From contig OZ242318.1 in the NCBI GenBank assembly GCA_965208105.1, positions 2,048,001-2,112,000 on the forward strand: DNA of 64,000 bases, read 5' to 3'. Every line of letters begins with the position of its first letter. Within the stretch, counting starts at the first letter, position 1. Positions 1-14,190 of the stretch are shown here, piece after piece. The translations under genes and the position numbers were made by a program. The notes under the pieces were generated by a model, which made no database searches, was not told the origin of the DNA, and was given only the letters and a program-made list of their open reading frames with translations. Source of the DNA: Candidatus Latescibacterota bacterium (GTDB taxonomy: Bacteria; Latescibacterota; UBA2968; UBA8231).

Positions 1-1176
1 GCCGACCTTGCCCGCAACCCCAACCGCCTCGCCCGCACTGTTTCGCAGCAGCACGGTTCCCGCCTTGCCGGGTTCGAACGCCAAACCGACCTCCGCCCGT
101 GTCGAGAACCGCTTCCCTTTCGGCAGACTCGTCGCAGGATGCTTGTCGCCGGACACAAGGTCCTGCTCGACATCTTTGGTCCTCCCCGAGGTGTGGAATG
201 TCCGAAGCGAGACCTCCGGAAAGGGGTGGCTGTTTATGAGCCAGCTTCGCTTGCTCTTCTGTCGGGCGTCGCCGATCCACAGGCCGCCTCCCTTTTCGAC
301 GAAACCGCGCAGCTTGCCTAGAAAGGGGTGTCCAGGCGCCATCGCCCGCGAATGATTCAAAAAGAAGGCCACGTTCGCGGTTTCCAGGTAGCCCTCGATG
401 GTTTCGATCTTGCAAGTGCCGTACGCCGGCACCTCGTCGATATCGAACTGCTCTCCTTCGGATAGCACCTTGAGAACGGGATGGAACCCCGTAACCACCC
501 TCAGGCGAGCCGACTGGTCGGGCTTCCACTGAAGCTGCGAACACAGAACTCTCTGGAGGGCCGTCTTCTCCTGGTCGCTCAACCTGTGGACGGTATCTGC
601 TCCGTCCACCGAGTTCTGGCGCGCCAAGTAGTCGACCCTCGCGTTTGCGAACTCTGTGAAACGTTGCTTCTGTTTCGGCGCGATGTGCGGAGCGAAGCTG
701 ACGCCCCATTCCCCGTCCTTAAGTCCGATGACGTGGCTTGGGAACAAGAAGTGTTTCCCCCGGTAATTCCAACGGAAGACGCTCATGCCGGGCGTGTGGC
801 CCGGAAAGTAGAACGCTTCGAGGTCAGAACCAAGCTTCAGCCCCTCGTCGCCGAACTCCTTCGCGGGACACTTCGTCTTCGTGCGAATGCCGGGGCGCTC
901 GGCTTCGTGGTAGCAAAGCTCGCTGCCGAACCGGTCGTAGAGCTGCTGGTGCAGATCGCCGCGCTTGGCGTCGTGGAAGTGGGGGACAAGCTGTAGGCTG
1001 ATACCTCCGAGCTTGTCGATCTCGTCGTAGTAATCCACAACGGACGAACCATTCTTGCAGTGACACACCAGGATGTTCCCCTGTTTTCGGACGAGCAGGT
1101 ATGTGTGACTAATGCCCCTGTCCTTGCGCCTGTGGGGGAAGTCGAACCGGTAGATGTTGGACAAGACGCGTTCCAT
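1..1176 (-). CDS. Cassette gene: MBL-fold-like N-terminal domain fused to a class I GATase/ThuA-like domain (3' end outside window)
   Basis: Own translation (not in ORF track): GGAGG RBS, ATG at 1176, MERVLSNIYRFDFPH...SHTYLLVRKQGNIL...HFHD...FPGHTPG...LRGFVEKGGGLWIGD, open to position 1. Confidence 0.7.
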   Translation of the reverse strand, partial: MERVLSNIYRFDFPHRRKDRGISHTYLLVRKQGNILVCHCKNGSSVVDYYDEIDKLGGISLQLVPHFHDAKRGDLHQQLYDRFGSELCYHEAERPGIRTKTKCPAKEFGDEGLKLGSDLEAFYFPGHTPGMSVFRWNYRGKHFLFPSHVIGLKDGEWGVSFAPHIAPKQKQRFTEFANARVDYLARQNSVDGADTVHRLSDQEKTALQRVLCSQLQWKPDQSARLRVVTGFHPVLKVLSEGEQFDIDEVPAYGTCKIETIEGYLETANVAFFLNHSRAMAPGHPFLGKLRGFVEKGGGLWIGDARQKSKRSWLINSHPFPEVSLRTFHTSGRTKDVEQDLVSGDKHPATSLPKGKRFSTRAEVGLAFEPGKAGTVLLRNSAGEAVGVAGKVG

Positions 1177-1270
1177 GGGTCCTCCATTATAGGGCGAAAC
1201 CGCCGAGTGAAGGATGCGGCCCGAGGTGCCGGCAGCTCCGCAGCTGCGGCTTGGACGCTCTCCTGCTGGC

Positions 1271-1353
1271 GGCTAACGTTTTCGCCGTGCCCGAACCGCG
1301 AATGCGGTTGCGCGAAGGGCGCATGCCCGAAGCCGGACACGGACGTGTTAGCG
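1271..1353 (-). repeat. attC-like site 1 (family A, CCGTGCCC stem)
   Basis: Top strand CGCTAAC-acgt-CCGTGTCC...GGGCACGG-cgaaaac-GTTAGCC; near-identical to the sites at 2060, 2879, 7704 and 10176. Confidence 0.9.
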
Positions 1354-1487
1354 GCTGTGGGCAACCCGGCACATCGGGTTTCTGCACCAGATGGATAGTC
1401 CCAGAGAATCCACGATGAAAGACAACGGAACACTGCAATTGAGTGTTGCCGTTGCCACATGTGATCTTGTTCGATCCACTACTGTGG

Positions 1488-2021
1488 TTACTCGGGTATC
1501 TCGAACACTTTGGCCAAGAAGTCATCTTTGTACCCGTTATTAGCGTCAGCCGTAGGAATTCCCTTGTTTACTGCACTCATTTTCAACGCGGCGTATTCAT
1601 CAAATAAATCAGGATCACTTAGCATTCTGTCTCTGAAAATCATAGCATCTCGGTATCGCTCCGAGTCTCTCGAGGTAATGTGAGCATGTATATTGAATTG
1701 GTTGCCGTCTGTTACGATCCCGGCGAACATGACGGGGGAGCTGTCATTACCCGAAGGCTCTCGCCAATCAGCATCGTGAAAGCCAAGTGATTTCAAAGTA
1801 GAGATGACCGCTGGTATCCTGTGTTCGTCAATGAGGACGAAGATGTCAATGATCGGCTTGCTAACCATGCCGGCAATCGATGTGCTCCCGAAGTGTGCAA
1901 CTTTACATGAAGTGACTTCCGATTCAACCAATTTTTTTATTCTGGAGAATACTCTCCCATAGATTGGATTGTGTGGAAGCATTTTCACGGGTTCGTATCG
2001 GTACCTTACAAGTTGTGTCAC
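1488..2021 (-). CDS. Cassette gene: GrpB/UPF0157 family nucleotidyltransferase-like protein
   Basis: HFGSTSIAGMVSKPIIDI and FRDRM...EYAALK motifs typical of GrpB. Confidence 0.85.
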   Translation of the reverse strand: MTQLVRYRYEPVKMLPHNPIYGRVFSRIKKLVESEVTSCKVAHFGSTSIAGMVSKPIIDIFVLIDEHRIPAVISTLKSLGFHDADWREPSGNDSSPVMFAGIVTDGNQFNIHAHITSRDSERYRDAMIFRDRMLSDPDLFDEYAALKMSAVNKGIPTADANNGYKDDFLAKVFEIPE

Positions 2022-2059
2022 CTCTCACCCTTTCTAACGTCCATTTCTATGCCCATTCC

Positions 2060-2142
2060 CGCTAACGATATCGCCGTGCCCGAACCGCGAATGCGGTTGC
2101 GTAAAGGGCGTAACCCCGAAGCCGGGCACGGACGTGTTAGCC
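2060..2142 (-). repeat. attC-like site 2 (family A)
   Basis: cgctaac...gttagcc palindrome; the stop codon of the 2137-2829 gene lies in its R'' box. Confidence 0.92.
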
Positions 2143-2829
2143 GTTGGGCCCCGCTTTAGAGGACAACCATTGAGCCAGAATCTCGGCGACACTGCTCATT
2201 GCCATCTGAAGATTTGTCTTGAAATCATCAGGTGCGGATTCGTCGGCATCGTCCGTGACTCCTCTCATCTCAAGGTACGGGACTTCGCTGAACCTGCACG
2301 CGCGCGCCCCGCCGGCGCCCTCCCAGGCGACAACCAGAGCTTGAGTCCGCTCACGAACCTGCACTCTCCGACTGGGTTCGACGATGTCCTCATCACCGCT
2401 TGCGATTACACCGAAGTGGACTTCGTGGCCCTCCACAGCCGCCGGCATCCCACGCAAACTCTGGAGCGCTGTCGGATCACCCTCGAATGAGGGCACCGGA
2501 CTGTCGTTGAACCTGTTGATGTAATCGTGCTCAACCGTTCGGGTGCCGACCACCACATCCCCGACGCGCAGTCCATCCGCCAGCCCCCCAGCGGCACCTG
2601 TGCAAATCACGAGGTCCCAACCTGATCCCGCATCCAGAAGATGCTGCAGCTGAACTCCGAACTGAGCCTTGCCTGTGCCACCCACCGCAAGAGTGAGTCC
2701 GAGGTCGGGGAACTGGGTGACAGGCAGCCGCCCTATGGTCTTAGCTCGTTGATCATGCCCGGCCGCCACGAGATCGTCGCGAATGGCTTCCAGCTCTTCT
2801 AGCATTGGTGCTACAGCGGCCACTTGCAT
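2137..2829 (-). CDS. Cassette gene: MTA/SAH nucleosidase (PNP/UDP family 1)
   Basis: VAPMLEELE, GGTGKAQ, TGAAGGL, GDVVVG, ASGDED, WEGAG, RGVTDDAD motifs. Confidence 0.85.
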   Translation of the reverse strand: MQVAAVAPMLEELEAIRDDLVAAGHDQRAKTIGRLPVTQFPDLGLTLAVGGTGKAQFGVQLQHLLDAGSGWDLVICTGAAGGLADGLRVGDVVVGTRTVEHDYINRFNDSPVPSFEGDPTALQSLRGMPAAVEGHEVHFGVIASGDEDIVEPSRRVQVRERTQALVVAWEGAGGARACRFSEVPYLEMRGVTDDADESAPDDFKTNLQMAMSSVAEILAQWLSSKAGPNG

Positions 2830-2878
2830 CTAATTCACATCCCAAGTGTCCCTTTGTGCTTCCCTTAGGGGGCCTTTC

Positions 2879-2952
2879 GGCTAACGTCCCCGCCGTGCCC
2901 GAACCGCGAAGCGGTTGCGCGGAGGGCGTAGCCGGGCACGGTCGTGTTAGCT
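2879..2952 (-). repeat. attC-like site 3 (family A, shortened)
   Basis: ggctaac...gttagct; contains the stop codon of the 2947-3435 gene. Confidence 0.92.
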
Positions 2953-3435
2953 GCTGGCTCTGTTCTCTCTCAGCCAATTTCTCAAGAAATCTGCTCTATC
3001 TGACCTGCCAAGTGCTTCGTACGCCGAACACTCGTAAGCCAAGTTTAGCACAGGAACCTGAATGCCTTCCGTTTCGACTGACAGTCTGTGCTCTGCAGGA
3101 TCAATTGGGTCCTCCCATGATCCATCTGAAAGAAGTTTTTGCACATCTCCCATGATCTCTACTCGTACTCCTCCGATTTCAAGCACACCAAAGTGAGATC
3201 GGATATTGCCAGAAGTCGAAAAACCTACCTTCTCGGTGGAGTACTCGCACAAGAGGTCTTCGATTTTGTAGGCCCCCGCGCCATCTGTTTGGAGATCAAT
3301 ATCGTGGACATCCACCGGCACTCCTTGCAATCGAAAACCCAAACTGCCGGTGATTGCCCAATTCACGTCGGCCCCATCGAGGCGCTCAACGACCTTGGCT
3401 AATGCTTGTCCGATCGTAGTAGGAACTGTAACCAT
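2947..3435 (-). CDS. Cassette gene: nucleotidyltransferase (Pol-beta superfamily, lincosamide/aminoglycoside NTase-like)
   Basis: WAITGSLG...HDIDL (GS + DxD) signature. Confidence 0.75.
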   Translation of the reverse strand: MVTVPTTIGQALAKVVERLDGADVNWAITGSLGFRLQGVPVDVHDIDLQTDGAGAYKIEDLLCEYSTEKVGFSTSGNIRSHFGVLEIGGVRVEIMGDVQKLLSDGSWEDPIDPAEHRLSVETEGIQVPVLNLAYECSAYEALGRSDRADFLRNWLRENRASS

Positions 3436-3451
3436 GTGCTTCGGAGCTTGC

Positions 3452-3552
3452 AGCTAACGTATTGCCAGTTTGCGAACGCCGAGCTTGTCGAGGCGTTTCC
3501 CGAAGGGACAAGGCGCCAAAAGGCGCCGAAGCGCAACACCGTGCTGTTATGC
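3452..3552 (-). repeat. attC-like site 4 (family B, CGGTTTGCG stem)
   Basis: agctaac...gttatgc; similar to the sites at 4271, 6804, 9502 and 12505. Confidence 0.9.
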
Positions 3553-3568
3553 GAAGATCGCCCTGACC

Positions 3569-4219
3569 CTAGTTCCGAGAACGTTCCAAAGCCAATCTTG
3601 CTCCCAATCCAACAAATATCACCCCTGCAAGACGCTGAATGGCCATCATGGCCCGAGTCGATGGCCGGAGCGCCCTTGACATCCTTGCAGCAAAGGTCGC
3701 CACAACTAGGCACCAAACAGTACCAGTGAATACGAACGTGCTACCCAAGACAAAGAATGCGAATGGTCTATAAGAGCTACTAGCGTCGATAAACTGGGGC
3801 AGAAATGCCAGAAAGAACATTGCAACCTTCGGGTTTAGGAGATTCGTGACTATGCCTCGCCGATATGTTGTCGTGACCCCTCTGAGATGCATTCCTTCGT
3901 TCGAACAAATGTCTGTCGACTGTCGGCGAAGCAGCATATCAACTCCCAAGTATACGAGGTACGCAGCGCCGAGTAGCTTCACTGCTGCGAAGGCAGCTGG
4001 CGACGTGGTTATTATGGCCGAGAGTCCCAGTGTTGCTAGCGCAAGATGAATAACGCCACCCGTGCTGACGCCGAGTGCTGATGCAAGCCCTGATATCCGA
4101 CCCTCCGCGACGCTGCGCGTGACGATGTAGATGGTATCCTGACCTGGTGTGATATTCAGAATAATGCCCGCCGTTACGAACACCCAGAAATTTACAATGC
4201 CGAGTGATTGGATATCCAT
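3569..4219 (-). CDS. Cassette gene: LysE/RhtB family exporter
   Basis: ITPGQD, GAAYLVYLG and NLLNPKVAMFFLAFLPQF motifs. Start at MDIQSL (alternative start 4243). Confidence 0.92.
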   Translation of the reverse strand: MDIQSLGIVNFWVFVTAGIILNITPGQDTIYIVTRSVAEGRISGLASALGVSTGGVIHLALATLGLSAIITTSPAAFAAVKLLGAAYLVYLGVDMLLRRQSTDICSNEGMHLRGVTTTYRRGIVTNLLNPKVAMFFLAFLPQFIDASSSYRPFAFFVLGSTFVFTGTVWCLVVATFAARMSRALRPSTRAMMAIQRLAGVIFVGLGARLALERSRN

Positions 4220-4270
4220 GTCCACCTCACAAATATGTTCCAAAATTTGACGAATCTACGGAGCGAATTC

Positions 4271-4361
4271 ACATAACGTTATGCCGGTTTGCGAACCCAC
4301 GAAGTGAATTGCCAAAGGCTAAGGCGCGAACAGCGCCGAAGCGCAAACCGTGCTGTTACCC
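4271..4361 (-). repeat. attC-like site 5 (family B; degenerate R'')
   Basis: acataac...gttaccc. Confidence 0.85.
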
Positions 4362-4390
4362 GATGTGTCAAACCACCCGACGCGCCGGCG

Positions 4391-4771
4391 CTACTTCACT
4401 GGCTCTCGAGGAACGGCACGAATTGCATCATCTAGCTGGCGCGACAATGGCGAAAATTCGGCACCAGATTTCGGATCAATCACTGCAATCGTGTAGTCAA
4501 CTGTGGTATCAGCGTAAACCTGAACAACCTTGTAGTCGATGGACGGGTTCGGATCCACAACGCGGATTGAATACTTAGCGCCCAACTCAGGAACATGCAC
4601 ATGGCGCATTTGTTTCAAAGCGTGCTCGACCCTTCGAACCGAAGACGAGTCACCTTGAACGACCAGCGATAATGGCTCTTCAGCGGGCTCGTCGCAGCTA
4701 GTCACCAGGAGTGCCCCTACTGCTGAACAGATAATCCAGAGTCGTGGTCGCATCATGTTCTGATCTCGCAT
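4391..4771 (-). CDS. Cassette gene: hypothetical lipoprotein
   Basis: Signal peptide with lipobox-like LVTSC; ATG directly after GTTATAGGAA. Confidence 0.65.
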   Translation of the reverse strand: MRDQNMMRPRLWIICSAVGALLVTSCDEPAEEPLSLVVQGDSSSVRRVEHALKQMRHVHVPELGAKYSIRVVDPNPSIDYKVVQVYADTTVDYTIAVIDPKSGAEFSPLSRQLDDAIRAVPREPVK

Positions 4772-4774
4772 TTC

Positions 4775-4865
4775 CTATAACGGGTTGCCGATGTGCGAAC
4801 TCGCGGAGCGAGTTGGCGAAGCCCCAAGGCCCGAATGGGCCGCAGCGCACAACGCGCTGTTATAC
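4775..4865 (-). repeat. attC-like site 6 (family B variant)
   Basis: ctataac...gttatac with the 4/7 spacer geometry. Confidence 0.88.
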
Positions 4866-4906
4866 GGCGTGAATCTCTGCTTCAGATTGAGCGCTATTTT
4901 CCTTAC

Positions 4907-5242
4907 TCAAATAGAGCAGTGTTGAGCCACGGGCACGACATCCGCCTGGCTCCGATCGTCCGAACCGGCCAGTCGAATCATCGTCGACTCATGGAGGAAG
5001 TCGTCGATGTCAAACCGTCTTGTAGGCCCGGGCAAGCCAAAGGACTGCTGCTCGAGCCCCTTCGCGAGTGAGGACTTGCCAGCGCAGTTCATCCCAGGGA
5101 TGCCAACGAGGTAATGCCGGGCGACTCCCTCAGCTCCTTCCGCGATCCGCTGGGCCACATGGTTCAGCAGGCCCGACTGTCGGACGCGAACGGTCGTGGT
5201 GTCTTGATCCGTCATCTCGCTTCCGATCTCACGACTCGGCAT
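4907..5242 (-). pseudogene. Truncated P-loop (uridine kinase-like) gene
   Basis: LVGIPGMNCAGKSS Walker A and DIDDFLH, then a stop after only ~100 aa. Confidence 0.55.
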
Positions 5243-5269
5243 GGGCCGCCATGCCTGATGGTTGCAAAT

Positions 5270-5328
5270 GGATAACGTCGCGGATCAGGCGCGGCTACTC
5301 GCCGTCGCCTGCATCCGGCTGGTTCGGC
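5270..5328 (-). repeat. Canonical 59-bp attC with extrahelical G (foreign type)
   Basis: Top strand GCCGAAC-cagcc-GGATgCAGGCG...CGCCTGATCC-gcgac-GTTATCC: 5/5 spacers and one unpaired G in L''. Confidence 0.88.
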
Positions 5329-6707
5329 GACCCTTCGTTCACATTTCGGAACCTGAAACTGTAAAGATCGGTATCCTTCATCTCGAATCGCAGACGAATA
5401 GTCTGTCCAGCCAACCGCTTCACATCGCTGCCGCTCTTCCAGGCAACGACGCAATCGATTTCGTCGCCTTTTAGGAGGCGGCATGCAACCAGTCCAAAGC
5501 CGTCGAGCGGCGTGCCTCTTTCGTCCTGGACTTCCACTCGCAGACTGCCGCCTTCCCGTGTAACGAAGTTCAGGACAAGTTGCCCGCCATCGAACGTGAT
5601 GGGCTTGGTCACCAATTCGCCCCCTTGGGTCCCGGCCCGGACTGATGCAAATCCGTCAACCCGGTACGTGAACCGGCGCAGCCTGGACTGTCCGGCGTCC
5701 TCGTACCCTTCGGAAGCATAGACGGAGACCTCCTTGTCTCCGGTCCGCACTATCCCCCACTGCATGTAATTGCCGCGATTGCCCTGGCGATCTTTCGGAG
5801 CGGTACGCGGGATCACCGGTTCCTTGCCCCAGAAATAGAACCGACGCCCGTTGCGACTGGCCATCAAGTAGGGCTCCGTCGATTCATCTTTCATCAGCCG
5901 CGTCGGAAAGCCGATATAGATTTGCGGTGCCCGCTCGTACGGCAGCACGGCGTTCGTGTACAGTTGAAACCCATCGCCGTAGACATCGGTGTTGGCGTAC
6001 GACAAACGTTCTGACCGGTCGTATTGCCATCTCTCGAAATCGTCTGAGGTAACAGTACGAATCATGCGCTGCTGGCCGTCCCACTCACGAAAAAACATGA
6101 CGTATGTCTTACGCAATGCATCCCAGAAAACCAGGTTCTGGGAATCGAAGAAGTGGCGTTGCCCCACGTGGATCTTTCCATCCGGAACAAGAGTCGGGTC
6201 ACCCTTATTGACCGGATGCCAATGAATGGCGTCCGACGACACGTAACCGTAAAGGGCGGCACTCCCCCGCTCCGCGATTGCCTTGTACCGGGCATGGGAC
6301 GGGCAGTCTGGATTGGTGTCTTTGAAGGGCGTGAAAGCGCTCGTGCCCAGCCTGGGATCGGAACCCAGAATCAGGTTGTTGGTTTTCGAGCCGGCGAACT
6401 CCACTAGTCCAAGACTTGGCTTATGCCAATGGATACCATCAGTACTTTGCGCATAACCCACACGGGGATTCTTCCAGTCGTCCCGGCGGCGGCCGGAAGC
6501 GCGATAGTACATCCGGTACGTCTCTGCATCTTTGAATATGGTAGCAGACATCGATGTGCAACCCTCCCACTGCGCGTCATACACCGCCGCCACCTCCCGC
6601 GGCACGGGTCTATGCAAATGCAGACGGACATCGTCCCCAATCCTGTCGATCAGCGCGTCATCTACAAACAACTGCCTGCGGTCCGCGATACTCTTCGGTT
6701 GTGTCAT
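5295..6707 (-). CDS. Cassette gene: five-bladed beta-propeller glycoside hydrolase-like protein (GH32/GH43 clan)
   Basis: AGGAGG RBS then MTQPKSIADRRQLFVDD; YAQSTDGIHW, SSDAIHW and FDSQN repeats. The C-terminus reads into the attC. Confidence 0.75.
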   Translation of the reverse strand: MTQPKSIADRRQLFVDDALIDRIGDDVRLHLHRPVPREVAAVYDAQWEGCTSMSATIFKDAETYRMYYRASGRRRDDWKNPRVGYAQSTDGIHWHKPSLGLVEFAGSKTNNLILGSDPRLGTSAFTPFKDTNPDCPSHARYKAIAERGSAALYGYVSSDAIHWHPVNKGDPTLVPDGKIHVGQRHFFDSQNLVFWDALRKTYVMFFREWDGQQRMIRTVTSDDFERWQYDRSERLSYANTDVYGDGFQLYTNAVLPYERAPQIYIGFPTRLMKDESTEPYLMASRNGRRFYFWGKEPVIPRTAPKDRQGNRGNYMQWGIVRTGDKEVSVYASEGYEDAGQSRLRRFTYRVDGFASVRAGTQGGELVTKPITFDGGQLVLNFVTREGGSLRVEVQDERGTPLDGFGLVACRLLKGDEIDCVVAWKSGSDVKRLAGQTIRLRFEMKDTDLYSFRFRNVNEGSPNQPDAGDGE

Positions 6708-6803
6708 TTCTCCTCCTTGTGCCATGGCGGTCTGGCCGCCCAACAAGGCCAAAGCGACTTTCAAAATGCATTATAATAACACCAATTCGTTTTTTCTCAT
6801 GCC

Positions 6804-6900
6804 GTATAACGTTGTGCCGGTTTGCGAACGCCGAGCTTGTTGAGGCGTTGCCGAAGGCCAAGCCGCCGTAGGCGGCGAAGCGGAAACAGGTGTGTTAGAT
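6804..6900 (-). repeat. attC-like site 8 (family B)
   Basis: gtataac...gttagat. Confidence 0.9.
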
Positions 6901-6949
6901 GAAGTGGGATTCAAACCAATGCCAAATCTGCATAGAAAACATCTTGAGA

Positions 6950-7594
6950 TCAGTCGCCGGTGCCTTGTCCGGTCAGTTGCGTCGTTTGGTTCAACGGCTT
7001 TCTCGCCACGGCCTTGTTGATTGGGTGCGTGTGCCGAATACTACCCGGATGCTCATCCTCAATGGTGTAGCTCTCTTCTAATTCGATGTCCCAATCCTCA
7101 TAGAGTGAGAACAATTTGCCTTCTTGGAACAGTCCGAGGCAGTGCGCTTCCAGATCCGCTGGCGGAGGAATCCTGTCAGTGAAAACGACAACGACGTTCG
7201 TGCCGCCCGGAATTGTATGAGACTTGAATTCCGAGACTAACTTCATCCATTGTTTTCGAGCGATCAGATGCAGACACCCGTGCGAGACAATGAGGTCGAA
7301 CTTGCCAGAGAATGAATACTGACGCATATCAGCGACATCGGCGCGTATGCTGATTCCATCACGGTCCGCCAGCATTTGCAACTTCCGGATGCCTGACTCC
7401 GAAATATCGACTGCCGTAACATCAAACCCCTGCTTCGCAAGGAAGAGTGCATTCCGTCCTTCTCCGCAACCTAAGTCCAAAACTTTTGCTCCCTGCACCA
7501 TCTGATTTGCAAGTTCTAGGATCTCAGCACTCGGATCGCCAAATGTCTTAGCCTCAAGATCCGCGTACCCTTTGGTCCATGGAAAATCAATCAT
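6950..7594 (-). CDS. Cassette gene: class I SAM methyltransferase (TehB-like)
   Basis: VLDLGCGEGRNALFLAKQGFDVTAVDIS; C-terminal HPG..H.H. Start MIDFPW (ORF extends to 7705). Confidence 0.88.
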   Translation of the reverse strand: MIDFPWTKGYADLEAKTFGDPSAEILELANQMVQGAKVLDLGCGEGRNALFLAKQGFDVTAVDISESGIRKLQMLADRDGISIRADVADMRQYSFSGKFDLIVSHGCLHLIARKQWMKLVSEFKSHTIPGGTNVVVVFTDRIPPPADLEAHCLGLFQEGKLFSLYEDWDIELEESYTIEDEHPGSIRHTHPINKAVARKPLNQTTQLTGQGTGD

Positions 7595-7703
7595 CGAATT
7601 CACTGGCTGTCGAACTTGCGCTTGAGTGGCGACTATGAAAGTATATCTCCAGAAAAATATTGGGAGATACACTGCAAGGCCCCGACTATACTTTTCCCAT
7701 TTC

Positions 7704-7785
7704 ATCTAACGTTCTCGCCGTGCCCGAACCGCGAAGCGGTTGCGCGAAGGGCGAAAGCACGAAGCCGGGCACGGACGTGTTACCT
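7704..7785 (-). repeat. attC-like site 9 (family A)
   Basis: atctaac...gttacct. Confidence 0.92.
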
Positions 7786-7831
7786 GCCGTGGCCATCCTG
7801 CACGAATGAAAAATTCCTCGTAGCAGCCGAT

Positions 7832-8629
7832 TCACACCTCTGGCTTAAAGCCTACGGCGCGACACCACGCAAAGGCCGCATAGGCATCGGGAGATACCGA
7901 CCACTCCTCCCAGGCTTCGGTTATTGCTTTCAACTCGTCATCTGTAGCAAGTCCGTGTTCTTGCGCGTTCTGAACAAAGGCTCCGTCCTGGAAGTAGTGC
8001 ACTTGTCTGCTCCCAAACGTCTTCACTTTGTCCTCAGTTCCATAGCAGAGATATTTGGAAGTGGCAGTCACATCATTAAAACTCGCGCCATTCAATAGAC
8101 CGCGAAGTTCGCGGCCGCAATATGGACCGCCGGTGCCTTTCAGAGTCCAGAGCTGCTCTCGAATTGAATAGCTGCGTCGAAGTAAGGACGAACGTGGTCC
8201 GCTGACGATGAAACCACCGTATTCCACGTCTGCGATTCCTAATACCCCACCGGGTTTGAGGACGCGCTTCACCTCCAGGAGTGCGTCTTGTGGGCGATCC
8301 AGGGTCTCGGCCACCGAGTGGCAGAGGCAGGCATCGAAGCTATTGTCTGCGAAATCGAGTTTGTAAACATCACCGACGCAAAAATCAATGTTTCCAATCG
8401 CGTGGACGCGAGCATACGTTTCAGCATCTCCGAAACCATCATCGCTAAGATCAACACCGACTACGCTACGCACCTTCTCGGCCACACCCAAAGCAATGCT
8501 TCCGCCACCGCATCCTACGTCCAGGACTTTGAACTCTGGTGCCAAGTGTGGAAACAGGAACTCGGCATAATCGTCCGCGTTCCGGCCGGCCATGTAGTCT
8601 TCAAAGCTCATGCCAAAGGTGTCTTCCAA
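7832..8629 (-). CDS. Cassette gene: class I SAM-dependent methyltransferase (UbiE-like)
   Basis: VLDVGCGGG, LDFADNSFD and RVLKPGG motifs. Confidence 0.9.
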   Translation of the reverse strand: MEDTFGMSFEDYMAGRNADDYAEFLFPHLAPEFKVLDVGCGGGSIALGVAEKVRSVVGVDLSDDGFGDAETYARVHAIGNIDFCVGDVYKLDFADNSFDACLCHSVAETLDRPQDALLEVKRVLKPGGVLGIADVEYGGFIVSGPRSSLLRRSYSIREQLWTLKGTGGPYCGRELRGLLNGASFNDVTATSKYLCYGTEDKVKTFGSRQVHYFQDGAFVQNAQEHGLATDDELKAITEAWEEWSVSPDAYAAFAWCRAVGFKPEV

Positions 8630-8645
8630 TGCGGAAAGCCATGGC

Positions 8646-8803
8646 AGGTAACGTTCTTAAGTGGCCGAACTGGCAAAGCCACAACTCATCCTAACCGCTG
8701 TGCCGCTCGGGCAGCCACTACTCCTTCCCAACGTCCGCACGTTAGGGCCAGTTGGGACGGAGGCCGCCGCAGGGCGGCCGCAGCCGGCCACTGTGTGTTA
8801 TGC
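8646..8803 (-). repeat. attC-like site 10 (long, 158 bp, unique sequence)
   Basis: aggtaac...gttatgc; AGTGGCCG/CGGCCACT stem with the same 4/7 spacers. Confidence 0.8.
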
Positions 8804-8856
8804 GAAGGTGCCCCCCGAGGCTACCCGCACCGCGTTCCACTACCCTCACAATGCTG

Positions 8857-9450
8857 TCATGTCGAGGTCCTCAATAGATGACGAACGGGCTCGTCAGACC
8901 ACAGCTGCACCTCAATGAACCGCTCCACAGGTGTCCCCCAGTAGTTGTCGTATTCAACTCGAGGCATTCCGTACTCCCCGATCACGGCCTCAAGTTCATC
9001 GATGAGGTACACGCGATCGTGATACGGTCTCGCCTCCTGGCGCGGGATTCCGAAATCCGCCCCGAAACCCATGGCCTCGAAACTGTCAGAATAGGTGAAG
9101 CTAGTGACGGGTGACGGGAGGTCGTTCAGAGCGACCACGACTTCCTTGGTGTCGGGAGCGAGCTGCTTGAACCACTCGGATCTACCCAGGACAAAGTAGT
9201 GTGGAGCGCTCCGCTCGGGCCGTCCGCCCCGGGCGACGAAGAGGCCTCGGAGCCGTTCCTCCGTCAGCCGTCGCATTTCAATATACTTGCGGCCGAACGG
9301 CCGCTTGTGATCACGGACTCGTCGGAGTTCCTGAAGCCCCTGCCGCACACCCTCAAGGTCTGTCTCAGCGAGGTCTGACAGGTTCAGAAACGGATGTCTG
9401 TCGGACAGGTGATAGTGCGTTACGAATTCTGGAATCTTCAATCGCGCCAT
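8857..9450 (-). CDS. Cassette gene: hypothetical protein
   Basis: 197-aa ORF filling a cassette, GGAG RBS; no family recognised. Confidence 0.75.
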   Translation of the reverse strand: MARLKIPEFVTHYHLSDRHPFLNLSDLAETDLEGVRQGLQELRRVRDHKRPFGRKYIEMRRLTEERLRGLFVARGGRPERSAPHYFVLGRSEWFKQLAPDTKEVVVALNDLPSPVTSFTYSDSFEAMGFGADFGIPRQEARPYHDRVYLIDELEAVIGEYGMPRVEYDNYWGTPVERFIEVQLWSDEPVRHLLRTST

Positions 9451-9501
9451 CTCCGACTACCGCTAGGACCCCTCCCTTCCAAATACGTTCCTGGCACTTT
9501 T

Positions 9502-9591
9502 GCATAACGTTCTGCCGGTTTGCGAACCCGCGCAGCGGGTTGCCGAAGGCCAAGGCGCGTCTGCGCCGCAGCGAAAACCGATGTGTTATCT
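9502..9591 (-). repeat. attC-like site 11 (family B)
   Basis: gcataac...gttatct. Confidence 0.9.
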
Positions 9592-9634
9592 GACATGCAA
9601 TTCGGTGAGCTCCAAGTCGAATAGATGCATTCCT

Positions 9635-10084
9635 CTATACGAACTCCTGAGCACGTACAGTGAATGGTGAAGTTGTATATGACTGAAACAAAACCCGCCC
9701 ATCAAATGACAGAAGCTGCCGAAGCCTTCGGCTGTAGCCAGGGTGATCTATCATCTTATCGGCATCTGTCTTCTGAACCCACGAAACATCAAGAGTCTCC
9801 TCTCCAATCCGGGCGTCGCCAGACAACCAAGATCCAAGGAAATCGAAAATAACTCGACGCTCACTAAGGTTGGTATACACCCCAACAAGTCGATTAGCCG
9901 AGGCCAGGATGTTGGCCTCTTCTCTGACTTCACGGATGACCCCATCGAGGATGGACTCACCTTCCTCTATTTGGCCACCTGGAAACTCCCACCCCCTTCG
10001 TGGGGTTTTAACCAGAAGGACATCGTCTCCTCGTTCCACGAGAATTCCAGCAGCGACGATATGTTTCGGTGGGTTCGGATGCAT
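9635..10084 (-). CDS. Cassette gene: NUDIX hydrolase
   Basis: Nudix box PGGQIEEGESILDGVIREVREEAN. Confidence 0.92.
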   Translation of the reverse strand: MHPNPPKHIVAAGILVERGDDVLLVKTPRRGWEFPGGQIEEGESILDGVIREVREEANILASANRLVGVYTNLSERRVIFDFLGSWLSGDARIGEETLDVSWVQKTDADKMIDHPGYSRRLRQLLSFDGRVLFQSYTTSPFTVRAQEFV

Positions 10085-10175
10085 TTGTTGCCTTCAGGAT
10101 GACCTTAAATTCCGGTCGATTCGGAATATCCAACCGGACGGGGATGGTAAGATAGTAGCCAAAAAAATGCATGTC

Positions 10176-10258
10176 AGATAACGTTCTCGCCGTGCCCGAA
10201 CCGCGAATGCGGTTGCGCGAAGGGCGAATGCCCGAAGCCGGGCACGGACGTGTTATAG
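10176..10258 (-). repeat. attC-like site 12 (family A)
   Basis: agataac...gttatag. Confidence 0.92.
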
Positions 10259-10302
10259 GATGTGCCAGATTGGGTGGAGGGGAAAGACATTCCACCAGCA
10301 CA

Positions 10303-10799
10303 TTATGTCCAATATTTTCGGCAGATAAAGGCCAATTCATAGAGAGCCGCGAAATCCTGGTCGTCAGCGGAAAACAGATCTGTTGCCTTATCGTACTCGA
10401 TAGTCCGCACTTCAGTGATCGAACCTCCCGCACATGAATGGGGTGGGGGAAATGAGGTAGCCTGGGCTGGGCCTCTTGTGAAACGCAATGGTACATCCCG
10501 ATCGGTTTGACGTGGCTCAAAGCTGCGCCCGTTTCCTCCATCATTTCCCGATGTGCAGCCTGCAACTAGCTCTCCCCAGGTTCCAGCGTCCCGCCAGGCA
10601 ACACCCACCTGCCATTCTCGCGACGGGTCACGAGGCACTCAGTCGCCGAGACAAATGGAATTACATAGGACGAGCCGCAACACGAATCTACGACTTCGCG
10701 ATCGAAATTGACGAAATCAATGCCCTGCCTCCCGCGATCCCGCAATGCTGGAAGATCTCGGACAAATCTGTCGAAATCTGAGTCATCCAGAGATTTCAC
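10303..10799 (-). pseudogene. Cassette gene: NUDIX hydrolase, disrupted
   Basis: LPGGTLEPGES*LQAAHREMMEETG: in-frame TAG at 10566-10568 inside the Nudix box, plus a frameshift/deletion near 10437. Confidence 0.8.
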
Positions 10800-10822
10800 A
10801 GCACTTCCCTATCTGGCATTTC

Positions 10823-10910
10823 CTATAACGTTCCCGCGGGCTGCGAACCCGTGCAGCGGGTTTTCTGCGAAGGCGCGAATGCGCCGAAGCCGTAGCCCGT
10901 CGTGTTAGCC
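10823..10910 (-). repeat. attC-like site 13 (family C, CGGGCTGCG stem)
   Basis: ctataac...gttagcc. Confidence 0.88.
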
Positions 10911-10962
10911 GTGTGTGCAGCCCGCACTGGCCTTGCCAGGACGGCAAGGCCTCTTGATTTGC

Positions 10963-11514
10963 TTAGGCATCCGTGGGACCAGGCGACCAGCCGATCGATT
11001 GGGCCCAACCGTCCGCACGGGACATGATTTCCCAGATTATTGGATTTTTTGAATCGGTGTACCTCTTCCTGTCCTCTCGGTACTTCATAGCCAACTCCCG
11101 TTTAACCTTCTCGTAACGTTTCTGCTCTTCCAAGTGTTCTCGGAGATAGTCACGAAACAACAAGGCGAACTGCTCAGACCAGCTGCCAGCCTTGCGGACG
11201 TGGATATGTGTTCGTCTCTTCCCTGGCAGTTCTCGAAAATACCGCTTTGTCCTTTCAGGGTTGTCCTTCCGCCAGATGTAGCCAATTTGCTCCAGCGGAA
11301 CTCGAAACGGATCAACGGGGTCGAGTTCCTTCACTGAAATCTGCACATCAATGATGGGCTTGGCTGCCAGACCTGCGATTGAGGTAGATCCAATATGGTC
11401 AATCCGGATCGCCACGTTCCCAAGAGCTTCCTTCATCCTGATCCCGAGCTCGCGGAAGAGCATTGGCCACTCATCCGAGTAGTCCTTGATCTCAATCACG
11501 TAAGGTGTCGTCAT
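10963..11514 (-). CDS. Cassette gene: GrpB/UPF0157 family protein
   Basis: IDHIGSTSIAGLAAKPIIDVQ, HIHV and LLFRDYLR motifs; start MTTPY. Confidence 0.92.
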   Translation of the reverse strand: MTTPYVIEIKDYSDEWPMLFRELGIRMKEALGNVAIRIDHIGSTSIAGLAAKPIIDVQISVKELDPVDPFRVPLEQIGYIWRKDNPERTKRYFRELPGKRRTHIHVRKAGSWSEQFALLFRDYLREHLEEQKRYEKVKRELAMKYREDRKRYTDSKNPIIWEIMSRADGWAQSIGWSPGPTDA

Positions 11515-11584
11515 TGATCGACTGCTCAGTTCATGGATTTGGCGGCGCAGGAGGCGCCGCCGCATTCTTTGCGGGCTGCATTAC

Positions 11585-11687
11585 GGCTAACGTTCTCGCG
11601 GGCTGCGAACCTGCCGCAGGCAGGTTTCCTGCGAAGGCCGAATGGCCGGAGCCGCAGCCCGCCGCAGCGTAAACCGCTGTGTTATCG
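11585..11687 (-). repeat. attC-like site 14 (hybrid family B/C)
   Basis: ggctaac...gttatcg; family C body with an extra family B arm. Confidence 0.85.
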
Positions 11688-11712
11688 GAAGGTCAATACA
11701 TCCCTCGCGTGC

Positions 11713-12489
11713 CTACTTGACCGCCAAAAGGTTGATCCTGCGGAAGGTTTCGAAACACGTGCCATCCGTTTGACGCGTCTCCTCAACCATTCGTTTTGTT
11801 ACAACCTCGTGAAATCGACTCCCTGTTTCAGAATCGAGGTACTGCTTGAATGGTATCACTGCCGGATGGTCAACCCAACCTAACATTGTCTGCGTATCGG
11901 GGAAGAATCGATCAGCGTTCTCTCCCCATACCCGCAGACTCGAAAAGGATGAGTTTCCTACGAGCTTCTCGTATGCTTCCACTGAAGGCATGTACCAAGG
12001 CCATTCGAAATCTGAAAAAGCTCCGGAAAATTCCTCGCTGGCCATTACCTCCAAGGCTACACGATTGAACGTGCCGCAGTTCCCCTCACCTGCAAAATTA
12101 ACCCTAACTACGCCAGAGCGTTTGAGAGCACGACAAAAGATCTCGAGGAGCATCTGGTGGTCCTTGATCCAGTGCAAAGTGGCATTGGAGAATATCACAT
12201 CGAACTCGTCCTGAAATTCTGCGTCGAGAATATCGATCAGTCGGAACGAAAGATTGGCTCGGTGGATATTCTGTGCCGCCTCGATCATTCCTTCAGAGGT
12301 GTCGATTCCAACAACTGAACCGGCGGAAACTGCGTCAGCGAGATTCGCGGTGAGGGTGCCGTCGCCGCAACCTACATCCAGAATGCACTCGTTGCCGGCG
12401 AGATCAAGTTCGTCGATCAATCGCGCTCCCCATTCTTTCTGGTGAGCGGACGTCTCCTGGTAGCGCTTTCCGTCGAAATCTACTCTCAA
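11713..12489 (-). CDS. Cassette gene: trans-aconitate methyltransferase-like SAM methyltransferase
   Basis: ILDVGCGDG and FDVIFSNATLHWIKD. Probable TTG start at 12489; the ORF-track extension reads through the attC. Confidence 0.85.
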   Translation of the reverse strand: MRVDFDGKRYQETSAHQKEWGARLIDELDLAGNECILDVGCGDGTLTANLADAVSAGSVVGIDTSEGMIEAAQNIHRANLSFRLIDILDAEFQDEFDVIFSNATLHWIKDHQMLLEIFCRALKRSGVVRVNFAGEGNCGTFNRVALEVMASEEFSGAFSDFEWPWYMPSVEAYEKLVGNSSFSSLRVWGENADRFFPDTQTMLGWVDHPAVIPFKQYLDSETGSRFHEVVTKRMVEETRQTDGTCFETFRRINLLAVK

Positions 12490-12504
12490 CTCACTTTGAC
12501 TTTC

Positions 12505-12600
12505 CGATAACGTTCCGCCGGTTTGCGAACGCCGAGCTTGACGAAGGGTTGCCGAAGGCCAAGGCGCGACAGCGCCGCAGCGCAAACCGTGCTGTTAGAT
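12505..12600 (-). repeat. attC-like site 15 (family B)
   Basis: cgataac...gttagat. Confidence 0.92.
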
Positions 12601-13080: not shown

Positions 13081-13260
13081 TGGCCGCCAAGTGCTACCTA
13101 TCTGAAACGAAGGTACCTATTGTTGTGAACAGTCGCAACCAGTATCCTCGAGGTCGTATATTCTCGTAACTCTTTGCGACTGTTCGAGATATATCGATTC
13201 TTCTGAGGTCCGGCGCATCTGGCATGCATTTCTCTGGCAAAGGTTTGGAGTATGCACGCA

Positions 13261-14190
13261 ATGCGGAAATATCGCGGACACCCGGGCCTGACCGATGAAG
13301 AGGTAGCTGTCCTCAGCCGGGTCGAGTTGGAGCTGAAGCTGAGGGGATACGCCAGGAAGACGCGGAAGTCGTACATGGGCCACTGCCGGCGATTCCTTCA
13401 ATGGAAACGGGGCTACCGCGGCTAAGGGCAGGAGGAAGTGCGGTCGCATCTGGGTTGGCTCCTCGCCCGGGGGGTGAGCCGCTCCGCCTTCAACACCACC
13501 TACAGTGCCTTGAGCTTTCTCTATAGGGAAGTTCTGATGCAGCCCGCCTCCCTGGAGAGGCTGCGAAGACCGAGGGGCGGACGGCAGCTTCCCGAAATCC
13601 TCAGCCAGCGGGAAGTGCTGCGTATCCTCGATTCTCTCCGCAATCCGAAGCACCGGCTCATCCTTGCCCTGCTGTATGCCGGGGGCCTGCGTGTGGGAGA
13701 GGTCGTGCGTCTCAAGGTGAGCGATATCGACAGCGATCGCATGCTGATCCGCGTTCGCCAAGGCAAGGGACGAAAAGACCGATATACCTTGCTGCCCCGG
13801 TCGATTCTCGAGGATCTCCGGTCTTACTGGAAGGCGTACCGGCCGTCGACATGGCTGTACCCCGGAGCCCGGGAAGGACGGCATCTCACCGAACGGTCGG
13901 TGCAGAAGATGTTCTCCCGTGCGGTCGTCGCCGCGGGAATCCGCAAACGGGTGACCGTGCACACCCTGAGACACAGCTTTGCGACGCACCTGCTCGAAGG
14001 GGGAACCGATCTGCGCTACATCCAGGAGCTCCTCGGGCACAGAAACTCGAAAACGACGGAAATCTACACCCACGTGCAGCGCAAGGACCTGGTGCGCATC
14101 GAGAGTCCGCTCGACGCGCTGTTGGGTCACGGCGGTAGCCCTGAGCAGGTTAGAGGACGCACCTTTCCGCGCCACGGCGATGAGAGGTGA
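13261..14190 (+). pseudogene. Integron-associated tyrosine recombinase (N-terminal SAM-like + catalytic domain) with in-frame TAA at codon 55
   Basis: MRKYRGHPG...ELKLRGYARKTRKSYMGH...YRG*GQEEVRSHL; catalytic GLRVGE, GKGRKDR, HTLRHSFATHLLE, LLGH and TTEIYTH are intact. Confidence 0.88.

What the first reader, a model, noticed from the sequence alone, without database searches (positions are those of the whole stretch)
4859..6810. Cassette inside a cassette: a canonical-attC glycosidase cassette nested in a native cassette
Seen: the end at 4859 (GTTATACGGCGTGAA) pairs with 6810 (GTTATACGGCATGAG, 13/15), not with the nearer site at 5276. Inside, a unit runs from GTTGGGCGGCC (6744) through RBS and the GH gene to a textbook 59-bp attC with a bulged G (5270-5328); its R'' pairs 9/11 with the 6744 site. 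The 62 bp upstream are AT-rich with a TATAAT (6770-6775). Inference: a classical-integron cassette integrated at a secondary or attI-like GTT inside a native cassette, which would be cross-talk between two cassette systems. The outer cassette may carry its own promoter and landing site.
Basis: partly seen in the sequence, partly recalled or inferred. Interest (0 to 1): 0.78.

Follow-up and report, generated by a model that had tools for sequence, protein, structure and literature searches.

The report
Gene cassette nested inside another cassette
In the chromosome of a sponge-associated bacterium, a 1.5-kb mobile gene unit (a sugar-cleaving-enzyme-like gene with its own recombination hairpin) sits inside another cassette of an integron-like gene array, and the two now travel as one unit; this is an uncommon variant of known integron off-target insertion.

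Summary
The window's first 13 kb is an integron-like cassette array on the minus strand, with attI near 13050. The cassette start at 6810 matches the R'' flank at 4859 (13/15, 10 contiguous). Only 18 of 1089 non-cognate pairs match as well, and 20 of 23 ordinary cassettes obey this start/R'' rule. A 59-nt attC at 5270-5328 is real. A contig from another genus of the same family carries the GH unit at 96.5% identity, and homology ends exactly at that attC's GACGTTA. In three other metagenome studies 4778-6810 lies on one contig, with different neighbours in one, and a fourth bridges the inner junction; none separates GH from the P-loop ORF. So "cassette in a cassette" is supported (about 0.7). 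Three corrections apply. The shared unit starts at 6775, not 6744. Both junctions carry GTTAT, which fits the known secondary-site consensus. Joining at G6780/T5275 restores a 129-aa outer ORF. The 6744 GTTGGGC is probably the older cassette end, 36 nt inside the unit. The promoter claim is not above chance, no empty site was found, and "two cassette systems" is plausible but unproven. The array's own integrase lacks the IntI-specific domain and carries a stop codon.

The parts
6805..6897 (-). attC of the upstream (TehB-like methyltransferase) cassette. Its R' G at 6810 is the crossover that starts the outer cassette.
   Evidence: Contigs of other runs stop matching at 6810-6813 (X2 rec27, X12 rec6, X13 rec12).
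6777..6809 (-). First 33 nt of the outer native-type cassette K (TTATACGGC...). Contains ATG 6800-6798. Not shared with L019.
   Evidence: Pairs with K's own R'' flank: 10 contiguous, 9/12. Homology to L019 starts only at 6775.
6776..6780 (-). GTTAT, left junction copy. Proposed crossover G6780|TT.
   Evidence: The same 5 nt occur at the right junction 5276-5272. Fits the secondary-site consensus GWTMW/GNT quoted in PMC4618277.
5277..6775 (-). GH unit shared at 96.5% with a contig of another genus (L019) and with metagenome contig L025.
   Evidence: 52 differences in 1504 columns, evenly spread. The rest of L019 is unrelated to this genome.
6745..6775 (-). 31-nt AT-rich 5' extension of the unit (TATAAT at 6775-6770). 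Travels with the GH cassette. Origin unknown.
   Evidence: Identical in L019. 35.5% GC. No other copy in the genome, in the fetched loci, or in viral contigs.
6734..6744 (-). GTTGGGCGGCC: probable original canonical 5' end (G|TT) of the GH cassette.
   Evidence: 9/11 to the reverse complement of the inner R''. Present in L019 and L025 too. In run X12 the G is replaced (6744 C>A on the + strand).
5295..6707 (-). ORF of 470 aa: a GH32/GH43-like two-domain protein (beta-propeller plus beta-sandwich). RBS GGAGGAG lies upstream. The stop lies in the attC loop.
   Evidence: Pfam GH32N E 0.0014, below cut-off. AlphaFold model pLDDT 72. Foldseek top hits are GH43/GH32 enzymes, E 1e-10, TM 0.35-0.47. 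More than 50 paralogues in the genome.
5270..5328 (-). Short classical attC of the GH cassette. R'' GCCGAAC at 5328-5322, R' GTTATCC at 5276-5270, bulged G.
   Evidence: Fold. Homology to L019 ends at GACGTTA. Family of 16 aligned members from this phylum, 15 with the bulge.
5272..5276 (-). GTTAT, right junction copy (crossover G5276|TT).
4866..5275 (-). Remainder of outer cassette K, with the 111-aa P-loop ORF 4907-5242. The ORF matches only the first ~80 positions of a 217-position nucleoside/nucleotide kinase model.
   Evidence: Joining G6780 to T5275 by coordinates gives one 129-aa ORF from ATG 6800.
4775..4865 (-). K's native-type attC. R'' ends at 4859. R' G at 4781 starts the next cassette.
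   Evidence: Contigs of other runs begin to match at 4770-4778.
13252..14190 (+). Context: the array's integrase. IntI-like, but lacks the IntI-specific insert and has an in-frame TAA. attI crossover near 13050.

Best explanation
A native-type cassette K of this integron-like array runs from 6809 to 4781. It has its own ~90-nt attC and an ORF that once began at ATG 6800. A 1.5-kb unit interrupted K after its seventh codon. That unit is a GH32/43-like gene followed by a short classical attC.

The most likely mechanism is integrase-type site-specific recombination. The partners would be the circular unit's attC R' site (G|TT) and a secondary GTTAT site inside K. This is the same chemistry as known secondary-site or attG insertions. 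The insertion left GTTAT at both junctions, at 6780-6776 and 5276-5272.

The inserted unit was itself already non-canonical. Its canonical cassette end (G|TTGGGC at 6744, which pairs with its R'') lies 36 nt inside the unit. The unit therefore carried a short AT-rich piece from an earlier location.

After insertion the inner attC has a hybrid R' (GTTATCC) that no longer pairs with its R''. The outer ends remain a matched pair, so the composite now moves as one two-gene cassette.

Shown: the outer pairing, the real inner attC boundary, horizontal sharing of the inner unit, and co-travel of the composite. Inferred: the enzyme, the exact crossover, and the order of events.
For: 1. Start/R'' rule. 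20 of 23 cassettes of 1200 bp or less have at least 7 contiguous matches between their first bases and the reverse complement of their own R'' flank. Among non-cognate pairs, 81 of 1089 reach 7 and 18 of 1089 reach 10. Pair 6810/4859 has 10 contiguous. Both 'two-cassette' pairings fail, with 3 and 5 contiguous.

2. Shared unit. L019 comes from another genus of the same family. It holds window 6775-5273 at 96.5% identity and nothing else from this genome. Homology ends at the inner attC's GACGTTA.

3. Junctions. GTTAT lies at both junctions and fits the GWTMW/GNT secondary-site consensus (PMC4618277 passage; PMC10127599 passages).

4. Reading frame. Joining G6780|T5275 by coordinates gives a 129-aa ORF from ATG 6800 that runs in frame into the 111-aa ORF. 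Joining at 6744 gives 9 aa.

5. Metagenome contigs (4 runs from 4 studies).
- X19 rec19 covers 4778-6835.
- X2 rec27 covers 4770-6810, with unlike sequence on both sides.
- X12 rec6 ends at 6812 and continues into 597 other letters.
- X12 rec5 bridges 5276.
- No listed joint separates GH from K.

6. Distribution. The GH unit occurs in only 2 of 168 genomes of the phylum.

7. The inner attC belongs to a conserved family, 16 rows aligned.
Against: - No empty K cassette was found. The 4 laid runs show no joint that skips the insert (tables truncated). No K homologue turned up in 168 phylum genomes or in the JGI metagenome scan. The 5.8-billion-protein search returned only 2 near-identical proteins, both starting at the downstream ATG.
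- In L019 the left end of the shared unit has no G|TT. The sequence there is ...ATCA|TATAATGC where the window has ...GTTAT|TATAATGC. At least one of the two left junctions is therefore not a clean integrase product, or it was altered later.
- L019 has a GTTCGGC 34 nt upstream of the homology start. This is the same offset as the window's 6810 GTT, and it equals the reverse complement of the window's R''. That could mean an ordinary cassette with a swapped 5' end.
- The frame restoration has roughly a 1-in-5 chance expectation.
- The start/R'' rule has exceptions, 3 of 23.
- The only integrase in this genome's array is broken and lacks the IntI-specific domain, so the acting enzyme is unknown.
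Confidence: 0.7

Rival explanations
1. Two ordinary neighbouring cassettes: GH from 6809 to 5276 with a short attC, and the P-loop ORF from 5275 to 4781 with a long attC. On this view the 6810/4859 match is chance or reflects a shared attC subfamily.
For: - The inner attC is a genuine recombination boundary.
- Arrays normally mix cassettes.
- The rule has 3 exceptions in 23.
- The 8-mer GTTATACG also starts another cassette, at -1991.
- L019 has a GTT at the same 34-nt offset upstream of the shared part.
Against: - Both cassettes would break the rule at once, while the crossed pairing fits at a level reached by 18 of 1089 non-cognate pairs.
- The independent GH copy lacks 6776-6809.
- GH and the P-loop ORF stay joined in the contigs that span 5276, while the outer neighbours change.
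- The frame is restored across the insert.
Confidence: 0.15
2. The GH unit reached K by a process other than integrase recombination. Candidates are illegitimate or short-homology recombination, or a deletion that fused parts of three cassettes. The GTTAT repeat would then be incidental.
For: - The left end of the shared unit in L019 has no G|TT.
- L019 is not a cassette array. It shows repeated integrase 3' fragments and an indel polymorphism against L025.
- One X19 contig seems to join 4394 to 5298 with 18 other letters, which looks like a deletion-type variant (table 5c).
Against: - The right end is exactly at the attC G|TT in both contexts.
- GTTAT at both junctions fits the known secondary-site consensus.
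- A simple deletion model does not explain why K's start pairs with K's R''.
Confidence: 0.12
3. Assembly artefact: a chimeric join in a repeat-rich array.
For: Arrays of similar attCs are prone to misassembly.
Against: Contigs from independent runs of other studies carry the same 4778-6835 and 4770-6810 structure, with 8-9 differences.
Confidence: 0.02

Closest known systems
Secondary-site insertion of integron cassettes (aadB in RSF1010/pIE723, Recchia and Hall 1995; Francia et al. 1993). Seen here only as citations and summarising passages in PMC10127599, PMC1382264 and PMC4618277.
   Same: - A cassette with its attC is inserted precisely at a short GWTMW/GNT site outside attI/attC.
- The crossover is at G|TT.
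- The resulting hybrid site is expected to trap the cassette (PMC1382264 passage).
   Different: - The target here lies inside another cassette of an array.
- The trapped cassette therefore regains mobility as a passenger of the outer cassette.
- The inserted unit carries 36 extra nt 5' of its canonical end.
attG insertions of cassettes into genomes (Loot et al. 2024, Nat Microbiol). Seen only as a reference and a one-sentence description in PMC12901181; paper not read.
   Same: Integrase-mediated insertion of attC cassettes at non-classical genomic sites.
   Different: Those insertions are genome-wide targets studied with IntI1 and related enzymes. Here the site is in a cassette of an array whose own integrase lacks the IntI-specific domain.
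Fused or multi-gene cassettes formed by loss of an attC (Partridge et al. 2009 types as summarised in PMC12901181; abstract of PMC4670013 in the listing).
   Same: Two genes end up travelling in one cassette.
   Different: No attC was lost here. The inner attC is intact, with stem and bulge conserved, and sits between the two genes.
Sedentary chromosomal integrons and CALINs (IntegronFinder paper in the listing; CALIN passage in PMC8618304).
   Same: - A long chromosomal array of cassettes with similar attCs, more than 43 kb here.
- Further attC clusters elsewhere in the genome without an integrase.
   Different: The adjacent integrase lacks the segment that defines IntI (profile positions ~180-234 of TIGR02249) and is broken in this genome.

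Membership tests
Integron gene cassette (inner GH unit) | attC: imperfect hairpin bounded by R'' (..AAC) and R' (GTT..) with extrahelical base(s) | tested here: met
   59 nt, -28.2 kcal/mol, bulged G and C on the 5' arm. Stem and bulge are conserved in 15 of 16 family members. 9 of 16 keep GTT at R'.
Integron gene cassette (inner GH unit) | 3' boundary at G|TT of R', shown by different downstream neighbours | tested here: met
   The window and L019 diverge right after GACGTTA.
Integron gene cassette (inner GH unit) | 5' boundary at G|TT, with first bases complementary to own R'' | tested here: inconclusive
   G|TTGGGC at 6744 pairs 9/11 with R''. But the piece shared between genomes starts 31 nt further upstream, at 6775.
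Integron gene cassette (outer K, 6809-4781) | Start pairs with own R''. Boundaries behave as recombination points in other arrays. | tested here: met
   10 contiguous, 9/12. Contigs of other runs change neighbours at 6810-6813 and 4770-4778.
Secondary-site / attG-type insertion by an integron integrase | Target matches GWTMW/GNT, with precise junctions at G|TT on both sides | tested here: met
   GTTAT at 6780-6776 and 5276-5272. Consensus quoted from PMC4618277.
Secondary-site / attG-type insertion by an integron integrase | Existence of the uninterrupted target (empty site) | tested here: not met
   Not found in 168 phylum genomes, in the JGI metagenome scan, in the protein database, or in 4 laid runs. 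These are samples, so absence is not shown.
Secondary-site / attG-type insertion by an integron integrase | Catalysis by IntI | not testable with these tools
   Needs a recombination assay.
Canonical integron (IntI plus attI plus attC array) | Integrase with the IntI-specific additional domain (TIGR02249 over cut-off) | tested here: not met
   - The window integrase matches profile positions 2-179 and 235-315 only, at 130 + 106 bits against a cut-off of 265, and has a TAA inside.
- No hit over the cut-off anywhere in the genome.
- An alignment with 6 canonical IntIs of the phylum shows the missing ~40 residues.
Canonical integron (IntI plus attI plus attC array) | Divergent integrase, attI crossover, same-strand cassettes each ending in an attC | tested here: met
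   A conserved attI palindrome lies next to the integrase in 4 of 5 relatives' loci.
Fused cassette by attC loss | First attC truncated or missing | tested here: not met
   The inner attC is complete.
Glycoside hydrolase clan of 5-bladed beta-propellers (GH32/GH43/GH130-like) | Family-level sequence match over curated cut-off | tested here: not met
   Pfam GH32N 18.7 bits against 22.1. NCBIfam GH130-type models are far below cut-off. No PDB sequence hit.
Glycoside hydrolase clan of 5-bladed beta-propellers (GH32/GH43/GH130-like) | Fold: beta-propeller plus C-terminal beta-sandwich | tested here: met
   Model pLDDT 72, pTM 0.70. Foldseek top 50 are dominated by GH43/GH32/GH130 enzymes, E 1e-10 to 1e-8, TM 0.35-0.47. 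Catalytic residues were not checked.

The most novel reading that the evidence does not exclude
Two integron lineages coexist in this sponge-associated family.
- Canonical IntI goes with short classical attCs.
- A conserved IntI-like recombinase lacks the domain that, in canonical IntI, reads the extrahelical bases (recalled from the VchIntIA structure work, not from a call). It goes with long attCs and a palindromic attI.

On this reading the nested cassette is a fossil of cross-talk. A cassette built for the canonical system was inserted into a cassette of the second system. It is now disseminated among sponge symbionts by the second system's recombination sites. Nesting at GTTAT sites near cassette 5' ends would then be a general route to multi-gene cassettes that keeps both attCs.
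Probability: 0.25. Interest if true: 0.75.

Novelty: new variant of a known kind. Interest (0 to 1): 0.55.

Why it matters
Off-target insertion of cassettes is known from plasmids and from laboratory assays. It is usually treated as a dead end for the cassette.

Here a natural example shows a different outcome. The trapped cassette lands inside another cassette and keeps moving as its passenger. The composite is found in sponge, coral and marine metagenomes from several studies. That is a simple route to two-gene cassettes without attC loss. It also shows that array annotation by attC counting can mis-split units.

The context adds interest. The host arrays are served by an integrase that lacks the hallmark IntI domain. 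If that enzyme is active, the definition of an integron integrase would need widening.

Tried and rejected
- **Empty site.** Instead I looked for K by protein and by DNA.
  - 168 phylum genomes: only G000, plus two weak unrelated hits.
  - DNA of 4866-6809 in the same 168 genomes: only G000 and G140.
  - JGI metagenome scan with K: none of 426 pattern matches confirmed.
  - Protein database: 2 hits, both near-identical and both starting at the downstream ATG.
  - Read laying on 4 runs: no joint listed that skips the insert. The tables are truncated ("188 more" loose ends, "264 more" pieces), so this does not show absence.
- **Third context for the GH unit.**
  - The genome-contig scan gave L019 plus relatives at 24-37%.
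  - The metagenome scan gave L025, which is the same context as L019 at 97%.
  - The 32-nt leader pattern found 0 matches in viral contigs.
  - blastn-short of the leader against all fetched loci gave only 10-15-nt chance matches.
- **Idea that the short attC family has consensus R'' GCCCAAC** (equal to the reverse complement of GTTGGGC). Rejected: only 2 of 16 aligned members have it. R'' varies by cassette, as expected.
- **Idea that L019's right-hand 150-nt repeats are attCs.** Rejected: they end in terminator-like hairpins.
- **Promoter.** 1 promoter-like site against 1.3 expected.
- **Rfam.** 0 matches in 1-14500. I do not know whether Rfam holds an attC model, so this says nothing.
- **PDB by sequence.** 0 hits for the GH protein.
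- **attC detection.** I used a home-made fold-based finder, not IntegronFinder's model. It gives many false positives in GC-rich DNA, so I curated 33 native attCs (TAAC...GTTA plus 3 added by hand).
  - Ten start/R'' pairs longer than 1200 bp were left out of the 20-of-23 count, because unlisted attCs lie between them.
  - Two of those ten pair well: 6810/4859 and 1277/-194.
- **Literature.** A search for six phrasings of "nested" or "cassette within cassette" together with "integron" returned 2 papers, neither on the subject. This covers only the open-access library and only those phrasings. Supplements were closed and not consulted.
- The 31.7-kb ENA contig that carries P0001 could therefore not be inspected.
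Full report
**Setting**

The window is G000:C1:2048001-2112000 of a 4.85-Mb single-contig genome. Its first ~13 kb has lower GC than the rest, 55% against 60%. This stretch is the integrase-proximal end of a cassette array on the minus strand.

- The array extends at least 30 kb beyond the window start.
- Cassettes end in similar 74-103-nt hairpins, bounded by ..TAAC and GTTA.. .
- The first crossover (attI side) is at about 13050.
- A tyrosine recombinase gene lies divergently at 13252-14190.
- The stretch 4700-6900 is held, at 73-87% of sampled words, in sponge, coral and marine metagenome runs from nine studies. The organism is therefore a sponge-associated bacterium.
- A contig of a MAG titled "uncultured Gemmatimonadaceae bacterium" (L019) belongs to the same family as G000 according to the genome search.

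**Checking the observation**

To judge whether 13/15 means anything, I tested the underlying rule. A cassette's first bases, which complete the R' half-site in the circular form, should pair with that cassette's own R'' flank.

- I curated 33 native attCs.
- 20 of 23 cassettes of 1200 bp or less have at least 7 contiguous matching bases.
- Among 1089 non-cognate combinations, 81 reach 7 and 18 reach 10.
- Ten longer intervals were left out, because attCs missing from my list lie inside most of them.
- The pair 6810/4859 has 10 contiguous matches and 9 of 12 at positions 5-16. 20 of 1089 non-cognate pairs reach 9 of 12.
- If the region were two ordinary cassettes, both would break the rule. Start 6810 against the inner R'' gives 3 contiguous. 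Start 5276 against R''(4859) gives 5 contiguous and 4/12.

The inner hairpin at 5328-5270 folds well (-28.2 kcal/mol). It belongs to a conserved family.

- Copies at 81-88% identity over 44-68 nt occur in other genomes of the phylum.
- In a 16-row alignment, 15 rows keep the one-base bulge and 9 keep GTT at R'.

**Comparative evidence**

*Copy in another genus.* A scan of one genome per species found a 93%-identical protein on L019.

- At the DNA level, L019 3546-5049 matches window 6775-5273 at 96.5%. There are 52 differences in 1504 columns, evenly spread.
- Nothing else on the 10-kb locus resembles G000. The best neighbour gene has 47% amino-acid identity to a distant G000 locus.
- L019's genome is in another genus of the same family.
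- The unit occurs in 2 of 168 genomes of the phylum.
- On the 3' side the two contexts diverge right after GACGTTA, which is at the G|TT of the inner attC. The attC is therefore a true recombination boundary.
- On the 5' side homology begins at TATAATGC (6775).
- The metagenome contig L025 is the same context as L019 and adds no independent junction.

*Contigs from four runs of four studies, laid on 2800-9600.*

- X19 record 19 (2058 nt) covers 4778-6835 with 8 differences.
- X2 record 27 (2456 nt) matches 4770-6810 and has unlike sequence on both sides.
- X12 record 6 matches 5557-6812, then has 597 other letters before 7699.
- X13 has a joint from 6813 to 9537.
- X12 record 5 (5233-5574) bridges the inner junction.
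- No listed joint or loose end separates GH from the P-loop ORF at 5276.
- No listed joint skips the insert.

The composite 6809-4781 therefore behaves as one cassette whose neighbours vary.

**Where the insertion junction is**

- The window has GTTAT immediately left of the shared unit (6780-6776) and GTTAT at the inner attC's R' (5276-5272).
- Joining G6780 to T5275 by coordinates gives a single 129-aa ORF. It starts at ATG 6800, which is nt 11-13 of the cassette, and runs in frame into the 111-aa P-loop ORF.
- Joining at 6744 gives a 9-codon ORF.
- Four of 34 other cassettes also start their main ORF (over 100 aa) within the first 20 nt.
- GTTAT fits the secondary-site consensus GWTMW/GNT quoted in a review (PMC4618277, passage read). 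It also agrees with the GNT/GTTRRRY description in PMC10127599 (passages read).

I therefore place the crossover at G6780|TT.

The 6744 motif is still meaningful. GTTGGGCGGCC pairs 9/11 with the inner R''. In my scoring, 6 of 234 GTT sites in the array do as well, and the leader holds 3 GTT sites. The motif lies a typical 35 nt before the GH start codon and its RBS.

The simplest reading is as follows. The canonical GH cassette ran from TTGGGC to the attC. The 36 nt in front of it (TTAT plus the 31-nt AT-rich piece) were picked up from an earlier location, when the unit was excised through an upstream GTT. This last step is inference.

**What does not fit**

- In L019 the bases before TATAATGC are ATCA, not TTAT, and there is no G|TT at that junction. 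At least one left junction is not a clean integrase product or was altered later.
- L019 has GTTCGGC exactly 34 nt upstream of the shared part, the same offset as the window's 6810. This 7-mer equals the reverse complement of the window's inner R''. The two 34-nt stretches are only 12/34 identical by my reading. I treat this as coincidence (roughly a few percent), but it keeps the "ordinary cassette with a replaced 5' end" reading alive.
- In run X12 the G of the 6744 GTT is changed.
- No uninterrupted K was found anywhere.
- One X19 contig appears to join 4394 to 5298 with 18 other letters (table 5c). I could not resolve it.

**The genes**

- The 470-aa ORF (6707-5295) has only sub-threshold family hits: Pfam GH32N at E 0.0014, and NCBIfam GH130-type models.
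- It has more than 50 paralogues in G000, the best at 36% identity.
- ESM-Atlas neighbours are mostly unnamed clusters from Planctomycetota and Poribacteria.
- An AlphaFold model from an 8-sequence alignment (pLDDT 72) matches GH43, GH32 and GH130 enzymes first (E 1e-10, TM 0.35-0.47). "Glycosidase-like" is reasonable at fold level. Activity is untested.
- The P-loop ORF aligns only with the first ~80 positions of a 217-position kinase model and may be a remnant.

**The integrase context and the "two systems" idea**

- The window integrase matches the integron-integrase model TIGR02249 only at profile positions 2-179 and 235-315. It contains an in-frame TAA.
- Nothing in the genome passes the model's cut-off.
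- In the phylum, 17 of 168 genomes have a full-length match.
- A second, domain-less class occurs in many genomes. Five copies, from four other genera plus the same-genus genome G001 (G001, G010, G014, G016, G118), are 84-93% identical to the window's. They lack about 40 residues that all six aligned canonical IntIs have. Two of these five (G010, G118) appear frame-shifted.
- In G001, G010, G014 and G016 this gene lies beside native-type attC matches.
- Four of five fetched loci carry the same palindromic attI sequence as the window.
- A canonical IntI locus of the same family (L055) is flanked by two 58-59-nt classical attCs.

A two-lineage picture is therefore plausible. The GH cassette's attC looks like the classical kind. 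Nothing here shows which enzyme inserted it.

**Comparison with what is known**

- Precise insertion of cassettes at secondary sites is long known. It is said to leave a non-functional 59-be that blocks further movement (PMC1382264 passage; Recchia and Hall 1995 seen only as a citation).
- Insertion at genomic attG sites has been described recently (Loot et al. 2024, seen only as cited and summarised in PMC12901181).
- Multi-gene cassettes are usually explained by attC loss (PMC4670013 abstract in the listing; Partridge's types as summarised).

This case differs. The target is another cassette, both attCs survive, and the composite is demonstrably circulating.

A phrase search for nested cassettes found nothing relevant. 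That is a weak statement about the literature.

**Verdict**

This is a real feature and a new variant of a known kind. The nested reading has confidence of about 0.7 and interest of 0.55. The main open points are the missing empty site, the non-canonical left end, and the identity of the enzyme.

Noticed in passing
window 13030-14190 (+); loci L059-L063: - The array's integrase is IntI-like but lacks the IntI-specific insert (TIGR02249 positions ~180-234).
- It has an in-frame TAA in this genome.
- The same domain-less gene, 84-93% identical, lies beside native-type attC arrays in the same-genus genome G001 and in genomes of four other genera.
- A conserved palindromic attI (..TAAC|TGC.TGTATGCGAACC.TTGGTTCGCATAATGG..) accompanies it in four of the five fetched loci.
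- This may be an integron lineage that standard definitions would file as CALIN.
   Followed up: partly
window 4272-4781 (-): The cassette with the 126-aa lipoprotein-like ORF breaks the start/R'' rule. Its start GTTATAGGAAATGCGA against the R'' reverse complement GTTACCCGATGTGTCA gives 4 contiguous and 5/12. It may be a chimeric or repaired cassette.
   Followed up: no
window 4394 / 5298 (run X19, table 5c): A contig (depth 15.2) joins 4394 to 5298 with 18 other letters between. This may be a deletion variant in which the GH gene is followed by the attC of 4272-4361.
   Followed up: no
genome C1 about 1.038-1.086 Mb and 2.738-2.764 Mb (outside the window): Further clusters of native-type attC matches occur without a related integrase nearby. 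Isolated short-type attC-like hairpins also occur, for example at C1:1058127-1058174.
   Followed up: partly
L019 1722-1860, 3149-3271, 5256-5415; 5866-8689: In the other genome, each of three same-strand genes, the GH unit included, is followed by a copy or fragment of the 3' end of a phage-type integrase gene. L025 lacks one 411-bp repeat-containing block. Further on, four ~150-nt repeats ending in terminator-like hairpins separate minus-strand genes.
   Followed up: partly
window 44473-45014: Three copies of a 34-nt repeat, two of them identical and 65 nt apart (family D11). Possibly a very short CRISPR-like array.
   Followed up: no
window 38205-38344 and 39048-39187: A 140-nt direct repeat at 89% identity, 843 nt apart (family D10).
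   Followed up: no
window cassette starts (for example 10829, 10182, 8652, 6810, 4781): 12 of 34 cassette starts have ATG at nt 11-13, mirrored by CAT/CGT in the R'' flank. The paired region of these attCs therefore extends about 16 nt beyond the classical 7-nt core.
   Followed up: partly
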